DNA of 64,000 nucleotides, from the sequence record OR544956; one strand, given 5' to 3'. Positions 53,050 through 55,754 of this stretch are shown piece by piece (the first letter of the stretch is position 1; every line of letters starts with the position of its first letter). The notes beneath the pieces are model-generated. The model saw only the letters and a list, made by a program, of their open reading frames with translations. It did no database searches and was not told where the DNA came from. The position numbers and the translations under genes are program-made. This DNA is from Escherichia phage vB_EcoM_EP57.

Positions 53050-53346
53050 TTAGATTACGATCTTTTTAGGAACGTCATCTGTATTCTGCACGGCAGGGGT
53101 TTCTTCTTCCATAGCTTCATAATGTTCTTCTAACCATTCTTCTACTTGCTCTTTAATAGCTTTAGCTGCTTGGAAGCGGAGAGGTTTTGCTGCATCCTTA
53201 TCATTAACAAGTTCAACAATATACCGCATAGCTTCTAAATAATGCTCTGCAAATAATTCTTTTACACTTGCTTGCGCCGCATCCATTGCGTAAATCTGTT
53301 GCATTTCGGCTGTTGGTCTTCCACGACCACGTTTTAGTTTAGGCAT
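53050..53346 (-). CDS. Small DNA-binding protein with AT-hook-like KRGRGRP motif (terminase small subunit candidate)
   Basis: 98 aa; its own promoter and tandem terminators. Confidence 0.3.
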   Translation of the reverse strand: MPKLKRGRGRPTAEMQQIYAMDAAQASVKELFAEHYLEAMRYIVELVNDKDAAKPLRFQAAKAIKEQVEEWLEEHYEAMEEETPAVQNTDDVPKKIVI

Positions 53347-53396: not shown

Positions 53397-53553
53397 GTTT
53401 TATTCAATAGATAGCAAAAAGCCTCCAATAAGGAGGCTAATAAATACTGTTAAGTTGAAATGCTTTATTATAATTGTGCGTTAAGGAGTCGCACCCCTCC
53501 ATCTTAGAAGGAACCAGGCAAGGTCTTCAAAGATACCGCTGGCAAGCGATATT

Positions 53554-53632
53554 TGGAGGCGGGAATTGGATTTGAACCAATGATCTCCAGCATATGAAAC
53601 TGGCGAGGACGACCAGACTCCTCTATCCCGCT
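53554..53632 (-). tRNA. tRNA with anticodon CAT (Met or Ile2)
   Basis: Manual fold: T-arm ATTGG-TTCAAAT-CCAAT, anticodon loop TTCATAT, CCA encoded; 1-72 is an A-C mismatch. Confidence 0.55.
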
Positions 53633-53638
53633 ATTATG

Positions 53639-53708
53639 TATCCCGTGCTGGATTCGAACCAGCATCACAATAAGCTGTGGAACTCTTATCCTGTAAGTCT
53701 AACGGGAA
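53639..53708 (-). tRNA. tRNA-like element, unassigned (anticodon arm cannot be folded; possibly degenerate)
   Basis: Good T-arm GCTGG-TTCGAAT-CCAGC and acceptor pairing, but only about 70 nt. Confidence 0.3.
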
Positions 53709-53710
53709 AC

Positions 53711-53784
53711 TGGTTGTTTCGACAAGAATCGAACTTGTGTCTCACGATTATCAGTCGTGGGTTCTACCATTGAACTACGAAACA
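53711..53784 (-). tRNA. tRNA-Ile (anticodon GAT)
   Basis: Perfect acceptor, T-arm and anticodon stem; loop CTGATAA; CCA encoded. Confidence 0.7.
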
Positions 53785-53790
53785 TTAAAT

Positions 53791-53867
53791 TGGTCGGAAT
53801 TGCAGGATTCGAACCTGCGACCCTACGCTCCCAAAGCGTATGCTCTACCAAACTGAGCTAAATTCCG
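53791..53867 (-). tRNA. tRNA-Pro (anticodon TGG)
   Basis: Perfect cloverleaf; anticodon loop TTTGGGA; CCA encoded. Confidence 0.7.
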
Positions 53868-53960
53868 TCATAACATTCTAAAGGTACACCGCAAAAGAAA
53901 GTGTTCGGCGGCTCCTCGTTTTTAACTTCACACTTGAGGTAGTGACTCACCTTTGTTATA

Positions 53961-54036
53961 TGGCTGGTCTGTCTGGATTTGAACCAAACCTACGACAGTC
54001 AAAGTGTCGTGTGCTACCGGACTACACTACAAACCA
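53961..54036 (-). tRNA. tRNA-Gln (anticodon TTG)
   Basis: Cloverleaf with anticodon loop CTTTGAC; CCA encoded. Confidence 0.65.
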
Positions 54037-54134
54037 ATAAATCATTTAATGAAGGGCAACCAGAAGAGGTGTGAGAGAAGGAGAAAACCATGAGTAAAAG
54101 AGAAAGTTTTCTGGCAACCCTTTATTAAATAATT

Positions 54135-54208
54135 TGGAGCGTTCTACGAGGATCGAACTCGTGCCGCCGACTTGGAAGGACGGAATGCTACCGCTACACC
54201 AAGAACGC
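54135..54208 (-). tRNA. tRNA-Gly (anticodon TCC)
   Basis: Acceptor GCGTTCT/AGAACGC, anticodon loop CTTCCAA; one mismatch in the anticodon stem. Confidence 0.55.
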
Positions 54209-54219
54209 CCTACATCTTT

Positions 54220-54249
54220 ACTATACTACATTTTACTATTGGTTGTCAA
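54220..54249 (-). promoter_or_regulatory. tRNA-operon promoter 1 (CTATTGACAA-18-TATAGT)
   Basis: Minus strand; -10 ends about 11 nt before the tRNA-Gly 5' end. Confidence 0.55.
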
Positions 54250-54524
54250 TAGTTTTATTGAGTGGGACAGTGACGAGTATCCCGTTGGGTGACTAGCCCT
54301 ACGTTCGGTAAGCTAACTTAAAATAATACAAAACCAAAGTCAAATATTATTCTTCGTTGCTGTCGATGGGAGAGCCGCTTCTCATTTTGCCCCATCCAAC
54401 CCTACTCCGGTCAAGTTTCGGGTAACTCTTTTTGTGTGATCAACACAATACTAAGAACACTGTCTTTCGAACAGACCTTGTGCACAGGATACGACGATCA
54501 ATCACAGTGCTCTTAATGTTGTGT

Positions 54525-54599
54525 TGGTGCTCCCACACTGAATCGAACAGAGATCCACGGATTACAAAACCGTTGTAATAGCCATTATACTATAGGAGC
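54525..54599 (-). tRNA. tRNA-Thr (anticodon TGT)
   Basis: Anticodon loop TTTGTAA; minor stem mismatches. Confidence 0.5.
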
Positions 54600-54605
54600 A
54601 AAGCT

Positions 54606-54682
54606 GGGACTCGGCAGGATTCGATACCTGCAATTCCAGAAGCCTCTTGGCGACTGGGGGTTTACCTTAACTCTACAAGTCC
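54606..54682 (-). tRNA. tRNA-like element, unassigned (T-arm near-identical to tRNA-Pro but with an 8-nt loop; no foldable anticodon arm)
   Basis: gcaggattcgatacctgc versus gcaggattcgaacctgc in tRNA-Pro. Confidence 0.3.
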
Positions 54683-54689
54683 ATAATTC

Positions 54690-54775
54690 TGGCGATGAGT
54701 ATAGGATTTGAACCTATATCGTTCTTTCGAACACGGATTAACAGTCCGCCGCTTAAACCATTCAGCCAACTCATC
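54690..54775 (-). tRNA. Class II (long variable arm) tRNA with anticodon GTT
   Basis: Perfect acceptor GATGAGT/ACTCATC, T-arm ATAGG-TTCAAAT-CCTAT, extra arm GTTC-GAAA-GAAC, anticodon loop CTGTTAA. Confidence 0.45.
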
Positions 54776-54781
54776 TTAATT

Positions 54782-54869
54782 TGGTGGTGAGTGATGGAGT
54801 TGAACCACCCGAATCGCAATGATAACAGATTTACAGTCTGCCCCGCTACCCCTACGGAATTAACTCACC
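54782..54869 (-). tRNA. tRNA-Tyr (anticodon GTA), class II
   Basis: Anticodon arm CAGA-CTGTAAA-TCTG as in E. coli tRNA-Tyr; 88 nt. Confidence 0.6.
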
Positions 54870-54947
54870 TAAATACTAATATTTAAATTCTTTTTAAAAT
54901 AGCCAGTGTTCACACCACTAACTATGTAAGCCATATTAAAAAGAACT

Positions 54948-55033
54948 TGGCGGTAGATGTAGGACTCGAACCTACACGCCGTTTCCGACTACAGTTTAGC
55001 AAACTGTCGTGGCTACCATTTCACCAATCTACC
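54948..55033 (-). tRNA. tRNA-Ser (anticodon GCT), class II
   Basis: Anticodon arm ACAGT-TTGCTAA-ACTGT; long variable arm. Confidence 0.65.
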
Positions 55034-55038
55034 TAATC

Positions 55039-55129
55039 TGGCGGAAGGAGGGAGAGTCGAACTCCCAAGGCTCTTTCAAGCTCGGCGGTTTTCAAGACCG
55101 TTTTCGTCGCCACGTCGATTTGCCCTTCC
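55039..55129 (-). tRNA. tRNA-Ser (anticodon TGA), class II
   Basis: Anticodon loop CTTGAAA; long variable arm; 91 nt. Confidence 0.55.
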
Positions 55130-55137
55130 ATACTTAT

Positions 55138-55167
55138 AATCTAACATAAAATAATGTTTGTTGTCAA
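55138..55167 (-). promoter_or_regulatory. tRNA-operon promoter 2 (CTATTGACAA-18-TAGATT)
   Basis: Minus strand; -10 ends about 9 nt before the tRNA-Ser(TGA) 5' end. Confidence 0.5.
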
Positions 55168-55363
55168 TAGTTTTTTAAAACATTTTACCATGAATGGTGA
55201 CTCCACCAACCCCCGTTCTCCACGAACGGTGCTCTTCGAGCATTTATGTCTTCTAATATAACCGTGGCCTTTGTTTATAATGTCTGACATACTTGCCTCA
55301 TTCTCTGCCACCATGATCAGTAGTGGGTTCAAATTACTTGAGCTAATTCATGTTAAAATGTTC

Positions 55364-55438
55364 TGGTGTCTTTACAAGGAATCGAACCTTGACTAAGAGT
55401 TTAGAAGACTCCTGTGCTATCCATTACACCATAAAGAC
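55364..55438 (-). tRNA. tRNA-Arg (anticodon TCT)
   Basis: Anticodon loop CTTCTAA; acceptor GTCTTTA/TAAAGAC. Confidence 0.6.
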
Positions 55439-55440
55439 GT

Positions 55441-55515
55441 TGGTGGCCCTGGCTGGTTTCGATCCAGCTACCTATCGGTTATGAGCCGACAGCTCTCCCA
55501 TTGAGCTACAGGGCC
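55441..55515 (-). tRNA. tRNA with anticodon CAT (Met or Ile2), second copy
   Basis: Acceptor GGCCCTG/CAGGGCC, D-stem GCTC/GAGC, anticodon loop CTCATAA. Confidence 0.6.
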
Positions 55516-55724: not shown

Positions 55725-55754
55725 ATCCTAACATATGAAGGATACGTTTGTCAA
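55725..55754 (-). promoter_or_regulatory. tRNA-locus promoter 3 (CTATTGACAA-18-TAGGAT)
   Basis: Minus strand, directly downstream of the 55762..56010 stop. Confidence 0.5.

What the first reader, a model, noticed from the sequence alone, without database searches (positions are those of the whole stretch)
53639..54682. Two degenerate tRNA-like elements inside the tRNA array
53639..53708 and 54606..54682 each have a good T-arm and acceptor pairing but no foldable anticodon arm. The second has a T-arm nearly identical to tRNA-Pro but with an 8-nt loop. They may be tRNA pseudogenes, processing signals, or tRNAs damaged by sequence errors.
Basis: seen in the sequence. Interest (0 to 1): 0.4.

Follow-up and report, generated by a model that had tools for sequence, protein, structure and literature searches.

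The report
Non-decoding tRNA look-alikes in phage
Two tRNA-shaped genes inside a coliphage's tRNA cluster cannot read codons: one looks like an eroding tRNA remnant, while the other is conserved and belongs to a widespread class of phage tRNA mimics with an enlarged T-loop that is absent from Rfam.

Summary
The window is a Phapecoctavirus (phAPEC8-like coliphage), and its tRNA array lies on the minus strand. Elements el1 (53708→53639) and el2 (54682→54606) sit in the array with tRNA-like spacing. Each has an acceptor stem and a T arm but no anticodon arm. ARAGORN, Rfam and GenBank annotators all miss them. All 12 real tRNAs of the array encode CCA; these two do not. Sequencing error is excluded, because the elements recur in 77 and 87 phage records.

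el2 is not a decaying pseudogene. A syntenic orthologue lies between tRNA-Asn and tRNA-Thr in the sister genus Justusliebigvirus, with four compensatory pair changes and the same 8-nt T-loop. It diverges about as much as the real tRNAs. It also fits a class of more than 100 metagenomic phage elements: a 7-bp acceptor closure, a D arm, a variable insert in place of the anticodon arm, and a T-loop UAUCRAAY. No Rfam family matched any element tested.

el1 derives from a tRNA (77% identity to the phiEB49 tRNA-Val). Its acceptor/T minihelix is invariant, but elsewhere it evolves about four times faster than neighbouring tRNAs.

The likely mechanism is inferred, not shown: excision by RNase P as stable tRNA mimics or processing modules. 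Function is unknown. The closest precedent is T4 RNA C and RNA D.

The parts
54606..54682 (-). el2: a 77-nt non-decoding tRNA-like RNA gene with an 8-nt T-loop
   Evidence: Sequence read, fold. It differs by 0-1 positions across 10 Phapecoctavirus arrays. An orthologue exists in Justusliebigvirus. No tRNA finder or Rfam family hits it.
54676..54682 (-). el2 acceptor 5' strand GGACTTG, which pairs with 54607-54613 (CGAGTCC)
   Evidence: Pairs 2:71 and 3:70 change on both sides in the Paula orthologue.
54658..54673 (-). el2 D arm GAG-TTAAGGTAAA-CCC (the middle pair is A·C)
   Evidence: The sequence TAGAGTTAA..AAAC is conserved between the two genera.
54636..54657 (-). el2 middle hairpin CCAG-TC-GCC-AAGA-GGC-TT-CTGG, which replaces the anticodon arm
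   Evidence: The tetraloop varies among Phapecoctavirus genomes (AAGA, AATA, AAAA). In Paula the hairpin is replaced by CTAG-AATTTT-CTAG.
54614..54631 (-). el2 T arm GCAGG-TATCGAAT-CCTGC (8-nt loop at 54619-54626), preceded by the connector AATT (54632-54635)
   Evidence: This exact 18-mer occurs in 98 IMG/VR stretches. It is the top hit of covariance model R1 in the window (26.6 bits, E 5e-5).
53639..53708 (-). el1: a 70-nt tRNA-derived element with a collapsed anticodon arm
   Evidence: Found in 77 phage records. Relatives are in A7_1 and UPEC06, and it is 77% identical to the phiEB49 tRNA-Val.
53666..53679 (-). el1 short hairpin CACA-GCTTAT-TGTG (4 bp, 6-nt loop) at the anticodon-arm position
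   Evidence: The loop varies among genomes (GCTTAT, ACTTAT, ATTTAT, ACTAT). A7_1 has 6 bp with a 5-nt loop instead.
53640..53663 (-). el1 T arm GCTGG-TTCGAAT-CCAGC plus the acceptor 3' strand ACGGGAT
   Evidence: The T arm and acceptor positions 66-71 are invariant in the 10 Phapecoctavirus copies aligned; only position 72 varies (T or C).
55138..55167 (-). Sigma-70-type promoter of the sub-operon Ser(TGA)-Ser(GCT)-Tyr-Asn-el2-Thr
   Evidence: TTGACA-18-TAGATT, 10 of 12 matches. This is a consensus match only.
54220..54249 (-). Sigma-70-type promoter of the sub-operon Gly-Gln-Pro-Ile-el1-Met
   Evidence: TTGACA-18-TATAGT, 11 of 12 matches.
53420..53438 (-). Intrinsic-terminator-like hairpin that closes the array
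54690..54775 (-). tRNA-Asn(GTT), 7 nt upstream of el2
54525..54599 (-). tRNA-Thr(TGT), 6 nt downstream of el2
53711..53784 (-). tRNA-Ile(GAT), 2 nt upstream of el1
53554..53632 (-). tRNA-Met(CAT), 6 nt downstream of el1

Best explanation
Both elements are real, heritable, tRNA-shaped genes embedded in the phage's tRNA operons, and neither can decode.

el2 is a conserved tRNA-like non-coding RNA. It keeps the tRNA shell: a 7-bp acceptor stem stacked on a 5-bp T stem, U8, a D arm, and U before the T stem. Its anticodon arm is replaced by a hairpin whose sequence is free to vary. Its T-loop is enlarged to UAUCGAAU, and it encodes no CCA. It is a short member of a widespread phage class with the same design.

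el1 is a tRNA-derived remnant. It retains the acceptor/T minihelix and a canonical D-loop/T-loop elbow, but its anticodon arm has collapsed to 4 bp with a 6-nt loop and its variable region to 2 nt.

The mechanism below is inferred, not shown. Each element is transcribed from the host-type promoter of its sub-operon. RNase P cuts the 5' side, since the 12-bp acceptor/T stack, U at -1 and G at +1 of el2 match what that enzyme uses. The tRNA 3'-trimming nucleases release the 3' side.

el2 would then persist as a stable RNA of about 76 nt. It would act through its remodelled upper half and elbow as a tRNA mimic, binding or titrating a tRNA-recognising protein of host or phage, rather than acting in translation.

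el1 most likely survives because its minihelix still serves as a processing module for the Ile-el1-Met part of the precursor, while the rest of it drifts.
For: Anatomy and failure of tRNA finders.

Encoded CCA: all 12 bona fide tRNAs of the array encode CCA after the discriminator; el1 and el2 do not.

el2 within and between genera:
- 0-1 differences in 77 nt across 10 Phapecoctavirus arrays, even where the flanking tRNA-Asn and tRNA-Thr alleles are replaced.
- A syntenic orthologue lies between tRNA-Asn and tRNA-Thr in Justusliebigvirus Paula. Its T-loop is TATCAAAT, and its D-arm and AATT-connector sequences are conserved, while the middle hairpin is unrelated in sequence.
- That orthologue occurs in 39 Justusliebigvirus records, 35 at 99% identity or more and 4 at 98.7%.
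- Four pairs change on both sides, against 0-1 in the slid controls.
- Identity between genera is 64%, within the range of the array's real tRNAs (59-76%, two at 95-97%). The Ser-Tyr spacer is 34%.

The wider class:
- The el2 T-arm 18-mer occurs in 98 IMG/VR stretches with unrelated flanks.
- 59 of 76 contexts have a 7-bp acceptor closure, against 6 and 11 of 76 in two controls.
- Most share a 5' U-G-GCG-GAAGAUAGA-CGC D arm.
- A search seeded on that D arm alone recovers the 8-nt UAUCRAAY loop on covarying T stems.
- Position +1 is G in 63% and position -1 is U in 56%.
- 29 of 171 loci have a tRNA within 400 nt, always on the same strand.
- Model R1 was built without any Stephanstirmvirinae sequence. 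It finds the Paula orthologue full-length as its best hit (28.6 bits, E 4e-6). It also ranks the el2 T arm first in the window.

el1:
- 77% identical to the phiEB49 tRNA-Val; 80-84% to elements that directly follow tRNA-Tyr in A7_1 and UPEC06.
- Five pairs show compensatory changes across these lineages.
- Within Phapecoctavirus it has 4.0 differences per 100 nt, against 0.6-1.1 for tRNAs whose allele has not been replaced. None of these changes falls in the T arm or in acceptor positions 2-7/66-71.
Against: - There are no expression, end-mapping or binding data, so every step after transcription is inference.
- Model R1 matches only the T arm of el2, not its full length. The el2 D loop contains GG and its D stem has an A·C mismatch, unlike the class consensus. 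Class membership therefore rests mainly on the T arm, the overall architecture and the Paula orthologue.
- The el2 T arm equals a tRNA-Pro T arm plus one inserted A. In isolation that could be a chance insertion.
- Within the genus, el2 is no better conserved than same-allele tRNAs or the Gly-Gln spacer. The argument for selection depends on a single between-genus comparison.
- In Phapecoctavirus, el1 shows uncompensated damage: 1:72 is always unpaired, 11:24 is broken in 5 of 10 arrays compared, and G18 is A in one. This is what neutral decay would produce.
- No conserved partner protein gene was found next to members of the class.
Confidence: 0.55

Rival explanations
1. Both elements are neutral tRNA pseudogenes: dead copies of array tRNAs that are decaying and have no function of their own.
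For: Both lack an anticodon loop and encoded CCA. el1 changes about four times faster than same-allele tRNAs. It also carries uncompensated changes at 1:72, 11:24 and G18. The el2 T arm is a tRNA-Pro T arm plus one base.
Against: el2 has a syntenic orthologue in another genus with four compensatory changes, the same odd T-loop, and tRNA-level conservation. The same design recurs in more than 100 unrelated phage contigs. The el1 minihelix is invariant, and its Vequintavirinae relatives keep every helix through compensatory changes, including T-stem pair 49:65.
Confidence: 0.15
2. They are purely cis-acting processing punctuation. On this view the RNase P and 3'-trimming sites exist only so that the neighbouring tRNAs are released correctly, and the excised product is discarded.
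For: Both sit 2-7 nt from real tRNAs inside sub-operons. Only the minihelix of el1 is constrained. Class members favour U at -1 and G at +1. It is established that T4 tRNA dimers depend on each other for maturation (own knowledge).
Against: The real tRNAs of this array abut one another directly without such spacers, for example Met-Arg and Pro-Ile. Punctuation needs only a minihelix. It does not explain the conserved D-arm sequence, the AAUU connector or the specific 8-nt T-loop of el2 and its class. Most class members are not next to tRNAs.
Confidence: 0.25
3. el2 and its class are natural 'tRNA scaffolds'. On this view the tRNA shell only provides processing and stability, and the variable insert (20-200 nt) is the functional cargo, such as a small RNA, aptamer or decoy.
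For: The insert replaces the anticodon arm, exactly as in engineered tRNA-scaffold RNAs (own knowledge). Element length ranges from 41 to 329 nt, with very diverse content. Some inserts carry nested minihelix-plus-T-arm modules.
Against: For el2 itself the insert is the least conserved part. It is a 22-nt hairpin with a variable tetraloop in Phapecoctavirus and an unrelated 14-nt hairpin in Paula, whereas the shell sequence is conserved. The non-canonical T-loop and the D loop without GG are conserved for no reason that a mere scaffold would require.
Confidence: 0.15
4. They are functional but unconventional decoding tRNAs, for example suppressors or frameshift tRNAs with odd loop sizes.
For: Phage arrays can hold unusual tRNAs. 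The el1 loop contains UUA.
Against: The loops are 6 nt (el1) and 4 nt (el2), and they vary in sequence and length between isolates. Neither element encodes CCA, unlike all 12 tRNAs alongside them. el1 has a 2-nt variable region. No tRNA model scores either element.
Confidence: 0.03
5. They are assembly or sequencing errors in otherwise normal tRNA genes.
For: None, beyond the single-base difference between the el2 T arm and the tRNA-Pro T arm.
Against: Identical or near-identical copies occur in 77 and 87 independent GenBank phage genomes and in metagenomes.
Confidence: 0.01

Closest known systems
Bacteriophage T4 RNA C and RNA D (species 1 and 2 stable RNAs, rnaC/rnaD)
   Same: They are small non-tRNA RNAs encoded inside a phage tRNA cluster and co-oriented with the tRNAs. 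RNA C ends in a canonical T arm. Their roles remain unknown after decades (PMC3014915, PMC9697503). An RNA D homologue (about 80% identical to T-even phages over 82 nt) sits directly after el2 in some Phapecoctavirus genomes such as phiWec188 and BI-EHEC.
   Different: Neither el1 nor el2 is similar in sequence to rnaC or rnaD. RNA C and RNA D are 139 and 119 nt. Neither shows the 8-nt UAUCGAAU T-loop or the class D-arm motif in its sequence. Model R1 hits only true tRNAs in the T4 locus.
Canonical tRNA (Rfam RF00005)
   Same: They share the acceptor stem, U8, D arm, T arm, position within a tRNA operon, and tRNA-like spacing. el1 is demonstrably homologous to a tRNA gene.
   Different: There is no 5-bp, 7-nt-loop anticodon arm and no encoded CCA. 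el2 has an 8-nt T-loop and el1 a 2-nt variable region. ARAGORN, Infernal and tRNAscan-SE-based annotation do not detect them.
YrlA bacterial and phage Y RNAs (tRNA-like domain, Rfam RF02553)
   Same: They are non-decoding RNAs that mimic the tRNA D and T arms and acceptor stem. They are substrates of tRNA enzymes, and some are phage-encoded (PMC4201824).
   Different: In YrlA the module is circularly permuted: T precedes D, the acceptor is a hairpin, and the RNA ends form the Ro-binding stem (PMC4201824). The only weak RF02553 hit in the region lies over tRNA-Ile/Pro, not over the elements. No Ro60 (Rsr) context was examined.
ROOL and GOLLD large phage RNAs
   Same: They are phage or prophage non-coding RNAs of unknown function that cluster near tRNA islands (bioRxiv 10.1101/2024.12.08.627333).
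   Different: They are hundreds of nucleotides long and have unrelated folds. No Rfam ROOL or GOLLD hit was found in the window region or in 27 class loci.
Engineered tRNA-scaffold RNAs and eukaryotic mascRNA
   Same: A tRNA shell drives RNase P processing and stability while the anticodon arm is replaced or shortened (own knowledge; PMC11693755 for mascRNA).
   Different: These are either artificial or eukaryotic. They keep a normal 7-nt T-loop.

Membership tests
Canonical tRNA | 7-bp acceptor stem formed by the 5' and 3' ends | tested here: met
   el2 has 7 of 7 pairs (one G·U). el1 has 6 of 7 (1:72 is U·U or U·C in all Phapecoctavirus copies).
Canonical tRNA | Anticodon arm with a 5-bp stem and a 7-nt loop (U33, anticodon, purine 37) | tested here: not met
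   el1 has 4 bp with a 6-nt loop that varies in sequence and length. el2 has a 9-pair-position hairpin with a tetraloop.
Canonical tRNA | T arm with a 5-bp stem and a 7-nt T-psi-C loop | tested here: inconclusive
   Met by el1 (TTCGAAT). Not met by el2, whose loop is the 8-nt TATCGAAT.
Canonical tRNA | Variable region of at least 4 nt | tested here: inconclusive
   el2 has AATT (4 nt). el1 has only AT (2 nt).
Canonical tRNA | Recognised by dedicated tRNA models | tested here: not met
   ARAGORN gives no call. Rfam RF00005 gives no hit at E≤10. The tRNAscan-SE-based annotation of phage ASO2A lists 12 tRNAs and neither element.
Canonical tRNA (as it occurs in this array) | CCA encoded directly after the discriminator | tested here: not met
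   12 of 12 real tRNAs have it. el2 reads C|AGC and el1 reads A|CAT.
Phage tRNA-like RNAs with an 8-nt T-loop (provisional class defined here) | 5-bp T stem with loop UAUCRAAY, preceded by U | tested here: met
   el2 has U-GCAGG-UAUCGAAU-CCUGC. The Paula orthologue has U-GUAGG-UAUCAAAU-CCUAC.
Phage tRNA-like RNAs with an 8-nt T-loop (provisional class) | 7-bp acceptor closure directly flanking the D arm and the T arm | tested here: met
   el2 meets it. In the class, 59 of 76 contexts close, against 6 and 11 of 76 in the controls.
Phage tRNA-like RNAs with an 8-nt T-loop (provisional class) | U8, a purine at position 9, and a 3-bp D stem with an A-rich D loop of the GAAGAUAGA type that lacks G18G19 | tested here: inconclusive
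   el2 has UA-GAG-UUAAGGUAAA-CCC, which contains GG and an A·C mismatch. Paula has UA-GAG-UUAAUAGAAAC-CUC, with no GG and a perfect stem. Similar minority D arms occur in the class (L061, L015).
Phage tRNA-like RNAs with an 8-nt T-loop (provisional class) | Anticodon arm replaced by an insert of variable length and sequence | tested here: met
   el2 has a 22-nt hairpin and Paula a 14-nt unrelated hairpin. In the class the insert is about 20-200 nt.
Phage tRNA-like RNAs with an 8-nt T-loop (provisional class) | Scored by a covariance model built from other members | tested here: inconclusive
   With model R1, el2 is the top hit in the window but only as a local T-arm match (26.6 bits, E 5e-5). 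The Paula orthologue matches full-length (28.6 bits, E 4e-6).
T4 RNA C / RNA D | Sequence homology to rnaC or rnaD | tested here: not met
   blastn of T4 rnaC and rnaD, and of the phiWec188 rnaD-like insert, against the window gives only chance matches.
T4 RNA C / RNA D | Stable small RNA processed from the tRNA-cluster transcript in infected cells | not testable with these tools
   This needs RNA from infected cells.
YrlA (RF02553) | Permuted tRNA-like module closed by a Ro-binding stem, detected by the Rfam model | tested here: not met
   No RF02553 hit overlaps either element. The elements are not permuted.
tmRNA | tRNA-like domain plus a tag-peptide reading frame | tested here: not met
   ARAGORN reports no tmRNA in the window. 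The elements are 70-77 nt long.
Neutral tRNA pseudogene | Substitution rate above that of functional neighbours, with uncompensated stem damage | tested here: inconclusive
   el1 has 4.0 differences per 100 nt, against 0.6-1.1 for tRNAs whose allele has not been replaced, and breaks at 1:72 and 11:24. Its minihelix is nevertheless invariant. el2 has 0.9 per 100 nt, and its between-genus stem changes are compensatory or wobble changes, apart from 1:72 (G·A in Paula).

The most novel reading that the evidence does not exclude
el2 may be the first representative in cultured phages (Phapecoctavirus and Justusliebigvirus coliphages) of a widespread, undescribed class of phage RNAs.

These RNAs hijack tRNA biogenesis but carry a deliberately re-engineered tRNA elbow:
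- a 7-bp acceptor closure;
- a class-II-like D arm without G18G19;
- a T-loop that is either the 8-nt UAUCRAAY or a UGARAGU-type T-loop;
- an anticodon arm replaced by a 20-200-nt insert, which sometimes contains nested minihelix-plus-T-arm modules.

They lie in tRNA arrays or in the leader upstream of the terminase genes. On this reading they act as elbow or top-half decoys, or as cofactors, for a tRNA-binding enzyme or defence protein.
Probability: 0.4. Interest if true: 0.8.

Novelty: new variant of a known kind. Interest (0 to 1): 0.6.

Why it matters
Phage tRNA clusters are usually read as codon-supply or anti-defence devices, and whatever tRNA finders skip goes unannotated. Here two tRNA-shaped genes have been overlooked in every annotated record checked, among well over 100 deposited coliphage genomes.

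One of them, el2, links easily cultured E. coli phages (phAPEC8-like and phi92-like) to a large, mostly metagenomic class of tRNA mimics with a conserved non-canonical T-loop. That makes the class experimentally tractable through deletion, T-loop point mutants, RNase P assays and pull-downs in E. coli.

It may also bear on the long-open question of what non-tRNA stable RNAs in phage tRNA clusters do, T4 RNA C and RNA D being the classic case.

In practical terms, annotation pipelines miss these genes, and they also miss two true tRNAs in this array when ARAGORN is used alone.

Tried and rejected
- **Global MAFFT alignment of 12 arrays.** It was distorted by allele replacements and rearrangements. 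Feature-wise local alignment replaced it.
- **Covariance model R1.** It was built from 'mini' class members with the inserts removed, and it matched only the T arm of el2. This gives limited support for class membership. The model was more useful on the Paula orthologue.
- **Search for the class D-arm motif in cultured phages.** No real matches were found. Near-matches to the T arm in Gordonia and Stenotrophomonas phages align with a 1-nt gap, as a canonical 7-nt loop would, but they were not inspected.
- **Bacterial genome scan for the T-arm 18-mer.** It gave 24 hits against about 17 expected by chance (2 × 5.96e11 / 4^18). Only about 9 of them show the class architecture.
- **Weak Rfam manA hit next to one class member (L012, E 0.007, far below gathering score).** Not pursued.
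- **YrlA, tmRNA, ROOL/GOLLD and T4 rnaC/rnaD.** These were considered as families and rejected.
- **Literature searches.** No description of an 8-nt T-loop phage tRNA-like class was found. One search was uninformative. The library is incomplete, so absence of a description is not proof of novelty.
- **Small ORFs overlapping the elements.** These are trivial frames across tRNA genes and were dismissed.
- **Metagenome scan for el1-like D arms.** It added only two more Phapecoctavirus copies and some chance hits.
Full report
**What the window is**

The tRNA region is 97-99.7% identical to phAPEC8-like coliphages (genus Phapecoctavirus, Stephanstirmvirinae). The tRNA array lies on the minus strand between 55515 and 53554.

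ARAGORN finds 10 tRNAs. Rfam adds tRNA-Tyr(GTA) at 54785-54869 and a tRNA-Ser(TGA)-like gene at 55043-55129. A tRNAscan-SE-based GenBank annotation confirms both.

Three near-consensus sigma-70 promoters and one terminator divide the array into sub-operons. Sub-operon P2 reads Ser-Ser-Tyr-Asn-el2-Thr. Sub-operon P3 reads Gly-Gln-Pro-Ile-el1-Met. In relatives the array lies about 1.5 kb upstream of the large terminase gene.

**Checking the observation**

- el1 (53708→53639): acceptor TTCCCGT/ACGGGAT with 1:72 unpaired; a D arm with GG in its loop; a 4-bp, 6-nt-loop hairpin where the anticodon arm should be; a 2-nt variable region; and a canonical T arm.
- el2 (54682→54606): a 7-bp acceptor stem; a weak D arm; a 22-nt hairpin with a tetraloop; the connector AATT; and a T arm identical to that of tRNA-Pro except for one extra A, which gives the 8-nt loop TATCGAAT.

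Minimum-free-energy folds recover the acceptor and T helices (z -2.8 and -2.7). ARAGORN, Rfam at E≤10 and three GenBank annotations do not call either element. All 12 real tRNAs of the array encode CCA after the discriminator, and neither element does.

**Not sequencing errors**

el1 occurs in 77 phage records and el2 in 87. Both also occur in metagenomes.

**el2 is under selection for structure**

Across 10 other Phapecoctavirus arrays el2 differs at 0-1 positions. The changes fall in the tetraloop, a junction base, the last hairpin pair or the discriminator. This holds even where the flanking tRNA-Asn and tRNA-Thr alleles have been replaced, with 11-37 differences.

Within-genus divergence is low overall, so the decisive evidence comes from the sister genus. 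In Justusliebigvirus phage Paula, the 79-nt gap between tRNA-Asn and tRNA-Thr holds this sequence:

GTGCTTG-TA-GAG-TTAATAGAAAC-CTC.TAG-AATTTT-CTAG-AATT-GTAGG-TATCAAAT-CCTAC-CAAGCAA

- It occurs in 39 Justusliebigvirus records, 35 at 99% identity or more and 4 at 98.7%, and none of the records shown annotates it.
- Against el2, four pairs change on both sides: acceptor 2:71 and 3:70, the hairpin base, and T-stem 50:64. Two more change to or from a wobble pair. The slid controls give 0-1.
- The D-arm sequence, the AATT connector and the 8-nt T-loop are kept, while the middle hairpin is unrelated in sequence.
- Overall identity is 64%. The array's tRNAs give 59-76% (two give 95-97%), and the Ser-Tyr spacer gives 34%.

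**A wider class**

The el2 T-arm 18-mer occurs in 98 IMG/VR stretches, with unrelated surrounding sequence.

- In 59 of 76 contexts, the 7 nt after the T arm have a complement 41-320 nt upstream. Two controls give 6 and 11 of 76.
- Right after that 5' strand, most members carry U-G-GCG-GAAGAUAGA-CGC. This is a tRNA-Leu-like D arm, but its loop usually lacks GG.
- A second search was seeded only on that D arm and returned 88 stretches. It recovered two kinds of T arm. One has 5-bp stems of varied, covarying sequence with the loop UAUCRAAY. The other has 7-bp stems with a UGARAGU-type T-loop.
- The middle part ranges from about 20 to 200 nt. It has no anticodon arm and sometimes contains nested minihelix-plus-T-arm modules.
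- Among 81 distinct 8-nt-loop members: +1 is G in 63%, -1 is U in 56%, the discriminator is A in 48%, and CCA is encoded in 16%.
- 29 of 171 loci have a tRNA within 400 nt, always on the same strand.
- The most frequent neighbours are large and small terminase genes 0.8-1.3 kb downstream on the same strand (23 and 12 loci). A sigma-70-region-4 regulator lies upstream in 6 loci.
- ARAGORN and Rfam do not recognise any member in the loci tested (30 and 27 loci respectively).
- In 596 Gb of bacterial genomes the 18-mer gives 24 hits, against about 17 expected by chance. Only about 9 have the class architecture. The class is therefore essentially viral.
- Among cultured phages the exact T arm is almost confined to Phapecoctavirus.

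**How firmly el2 belongs to that class**

In favour: the T arm, the U before it, the acceptor closure and the replaced anticodon arm all match. The Paula orthologue has no GG in its D loop, like the class consensus. Model R1, built without any Stephanstirmvirinae sequence, finds Paula full-length as its best hit (28.6 bits, E 4e-6).

Against: R1 matches only the T arm of el2 itself (26.6 bits). The el2 D arm also resembles an ordinary class-I tRNA D arm. I rate membership as likely but not proven.

**el1 is a different thing**

Its T-loop is canonical. Its nearest relatives are elements that directly follow tRNA-Tyr in the Vequintavirinae phages A7_1 and UPEC06 (80-84% identity; a 6-bp stem with a 5-nt loop). 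It is also 77% identical to the CCA-encoding tRNA-Val of phage phiEB49.

Across these lineages five pairs show compensatory changes, including T-stem 49:65 and acceptor pairs 1-3. The fold was therefore maintained over the long term.

Within Phapecoctavirus, el1 accumulates 4.0 differences per 100 nt, against 0.6-1.1 for tRNAs whose allele has not been replaced. These include uncompensated hits at D-stem 11:24, at G18 and at position 72, plus loop indels. None falls in the T arm or in acceptor positions 2-7/66-71. This is the pattern of a tRNA remnant in which only the minihelix is still constrained.

**Mechanism: what is shown and what is inferred**

Shown:
- sequence anatomy;
- position and orientation inside promoter-to-terminator units;
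- absence of decoding features and of CCA;
- conservation and covariation.

Inferred from established tRNA biology:
- A 12-bp acceptor/T stack with U at -1 and G at +1 is what bacterial RNase P recognises, so both elements should be excised like tRNAs.
- el2 should persist as a stable tRNA-shaped RNA. The shell and the odd elbow are what evolution keeps, while the insert is free to vary. This suggests that el2 acts as a mimic toward a tRNA-binding protein.
- The minihelix of el1 probably persists as a processing module.

No partner protein, phenotype or transcript was observed.

**Comparison with what is known**

- The closest precedent is T4 RNA C and RNA D, small stable RNAs from the T4 tRNA cluster whose roles are still unknown (PMC3014915, PMC9697503).
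- el1 and el2 are not their homologues. However, some Phapecoctavirus genomes (phiWec188, BI-EHEC) carry an RNA D homologue immediately after el2. Non-tRNA RNAs evidently move in and out of these arrays.
- YrlA Y RNAs mimic tRNA, but in a permuted arrangement (PMC4201824).
- ROOL and GOLLD share only their preference for tRNA islands (bioRxiv 10.1101/2024.12.08.627333).
- A catalogue of about 10,000 viral candidate structured RNAs mentions tRNA-like candidates without describing this design (PMC10690425).

**Verdict**

- el1 is a tRNA-derived relic or processing module, which is ordinary.
- el2 is an unannotated, conserved tRNA mimic that opens onto a large class absent from Rfam.

The main caveats are these: no expression data exist; class membership of el2 rests on limited features; the literature check was incomplete; and function is unknown.

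Noticed in passing
IMG/VR loci L009-L180 (e.g. L016, L059, L090, L166, L170): This is a large class of phage tRNA-like elements. Each has a 7-bp acceptor closure, a UGGCGGAAGAUAGACGC-type D arm, a variable 20-200-nt middle, and a T arm. The T arm carries either an 8-nt UAUCRAAY loop or a 7-bp stem with a UGARAGU T-loop. ARAGORN and Rfam do not call them. They often lie upstream of terminase genes or inside tRNA arrays.
   Followed up: partly
L170 (189-nt element) and other large class members: The insert contains complete nested modules, each an acceptor-like stem plus a canonical T arm (e.g. GTCGAACG...CACGTGGTTCGATTCCACG CGTTCGAC). The result is a tRNA-like RNA built from tRNA-like parts.
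   Followed up: no
window 54037-54134 (- strand), between tRNA-Gly and tRNA-Gln; Paula L218:2302-2400: This spacer is almost invariant in Phapecoctavirus (0-4 differences in 98 nt). It folds into a stem of about 24 bp around a loop of about 43 nt (z -5.7). Paula has the same design with a partly different stem sequence (z -4.1) and the same loop string CUCAUGGUUUUCUCCUUC. On the opposite strand that string reads as a Shine-Dalgarno sequence plus ATG of a 12-codon mini-ORF. It may be another conserved RNA or a mini-gene.
   Followed up: partly
L216:818-935 (phiWec188), directly after el2; also BI-EHEC: Some Phapecoctavirus genomes carry a 118-nt insert between el2 and tRNA-Thr. It is homologous to T4/T2 RNA D (about 80-82% identity over 82 nt; 161 phage records match). 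The window itself lacks this insert.
   Followed up: partly
window 54783-54870 and 55040-55129 (- strand): ARAGORN misses two real tRNAs, tRNA-Tyr(GTA) and tRNA-Ser(TGA). Rfam scores them at 39 bits (tRNA model) and 37.4 bits (tRNA-Sec model, below its gathering score). Some GenBank records call the Tyr gene 'tRNA-Pseudo-GTA'.
   Followed up: yes
window 53554-55515 compared with L001-L003, L007, L081, L188, L213-L217: The array is mosaic among Phapecoctavirus genomes. tRNA-Pro, Tyr, Asn and Thr exist as divergent alleles (11-46 differences) or are missing, while the neighbouring genes are identical. This suggests frequent cassette exchange.
   Followed up: partly
window 55725-55754, 55138-55167, 54220-54249 (- strand): Three promoters share the extended motif AACTATTGACAA with an 18-nt spacer, one in front of each tRNA sub-operon. 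The leaders and spacers of 234-316 nt that accompany them have no assigned function.
   Followed up: no
Paula L218:2639-2715 and L218:3059-3204: Further gaps in the Justusliebigvirus array hold structured-looking sequence. One is a 6-bp closing stem ACACCA...TGGTGT. The other is a degenerate T arm (GGGGTTCGATTCCTC) followed by GCCA. These may be additional unannotated tRNA-like elements.
   Followed up: no
L012:1758-1918 (- strand): A weak Rfam manA-motif hit (25.9 bits, E 0.007, below the gathering score) lies immediately downstream of a class member in one IMG/VR contig.
   Followed up: no
window 53050-53346 (- strand): The 98-aa ORF just downstream of the array terminator is annotated as the small terminase subunit in one relative (phAPEC8_ev052) and as hypothetical in the others. 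If the annotation is right, the array sits in the same position, upstream of terS and terL, as many class members.
   Followed up: no
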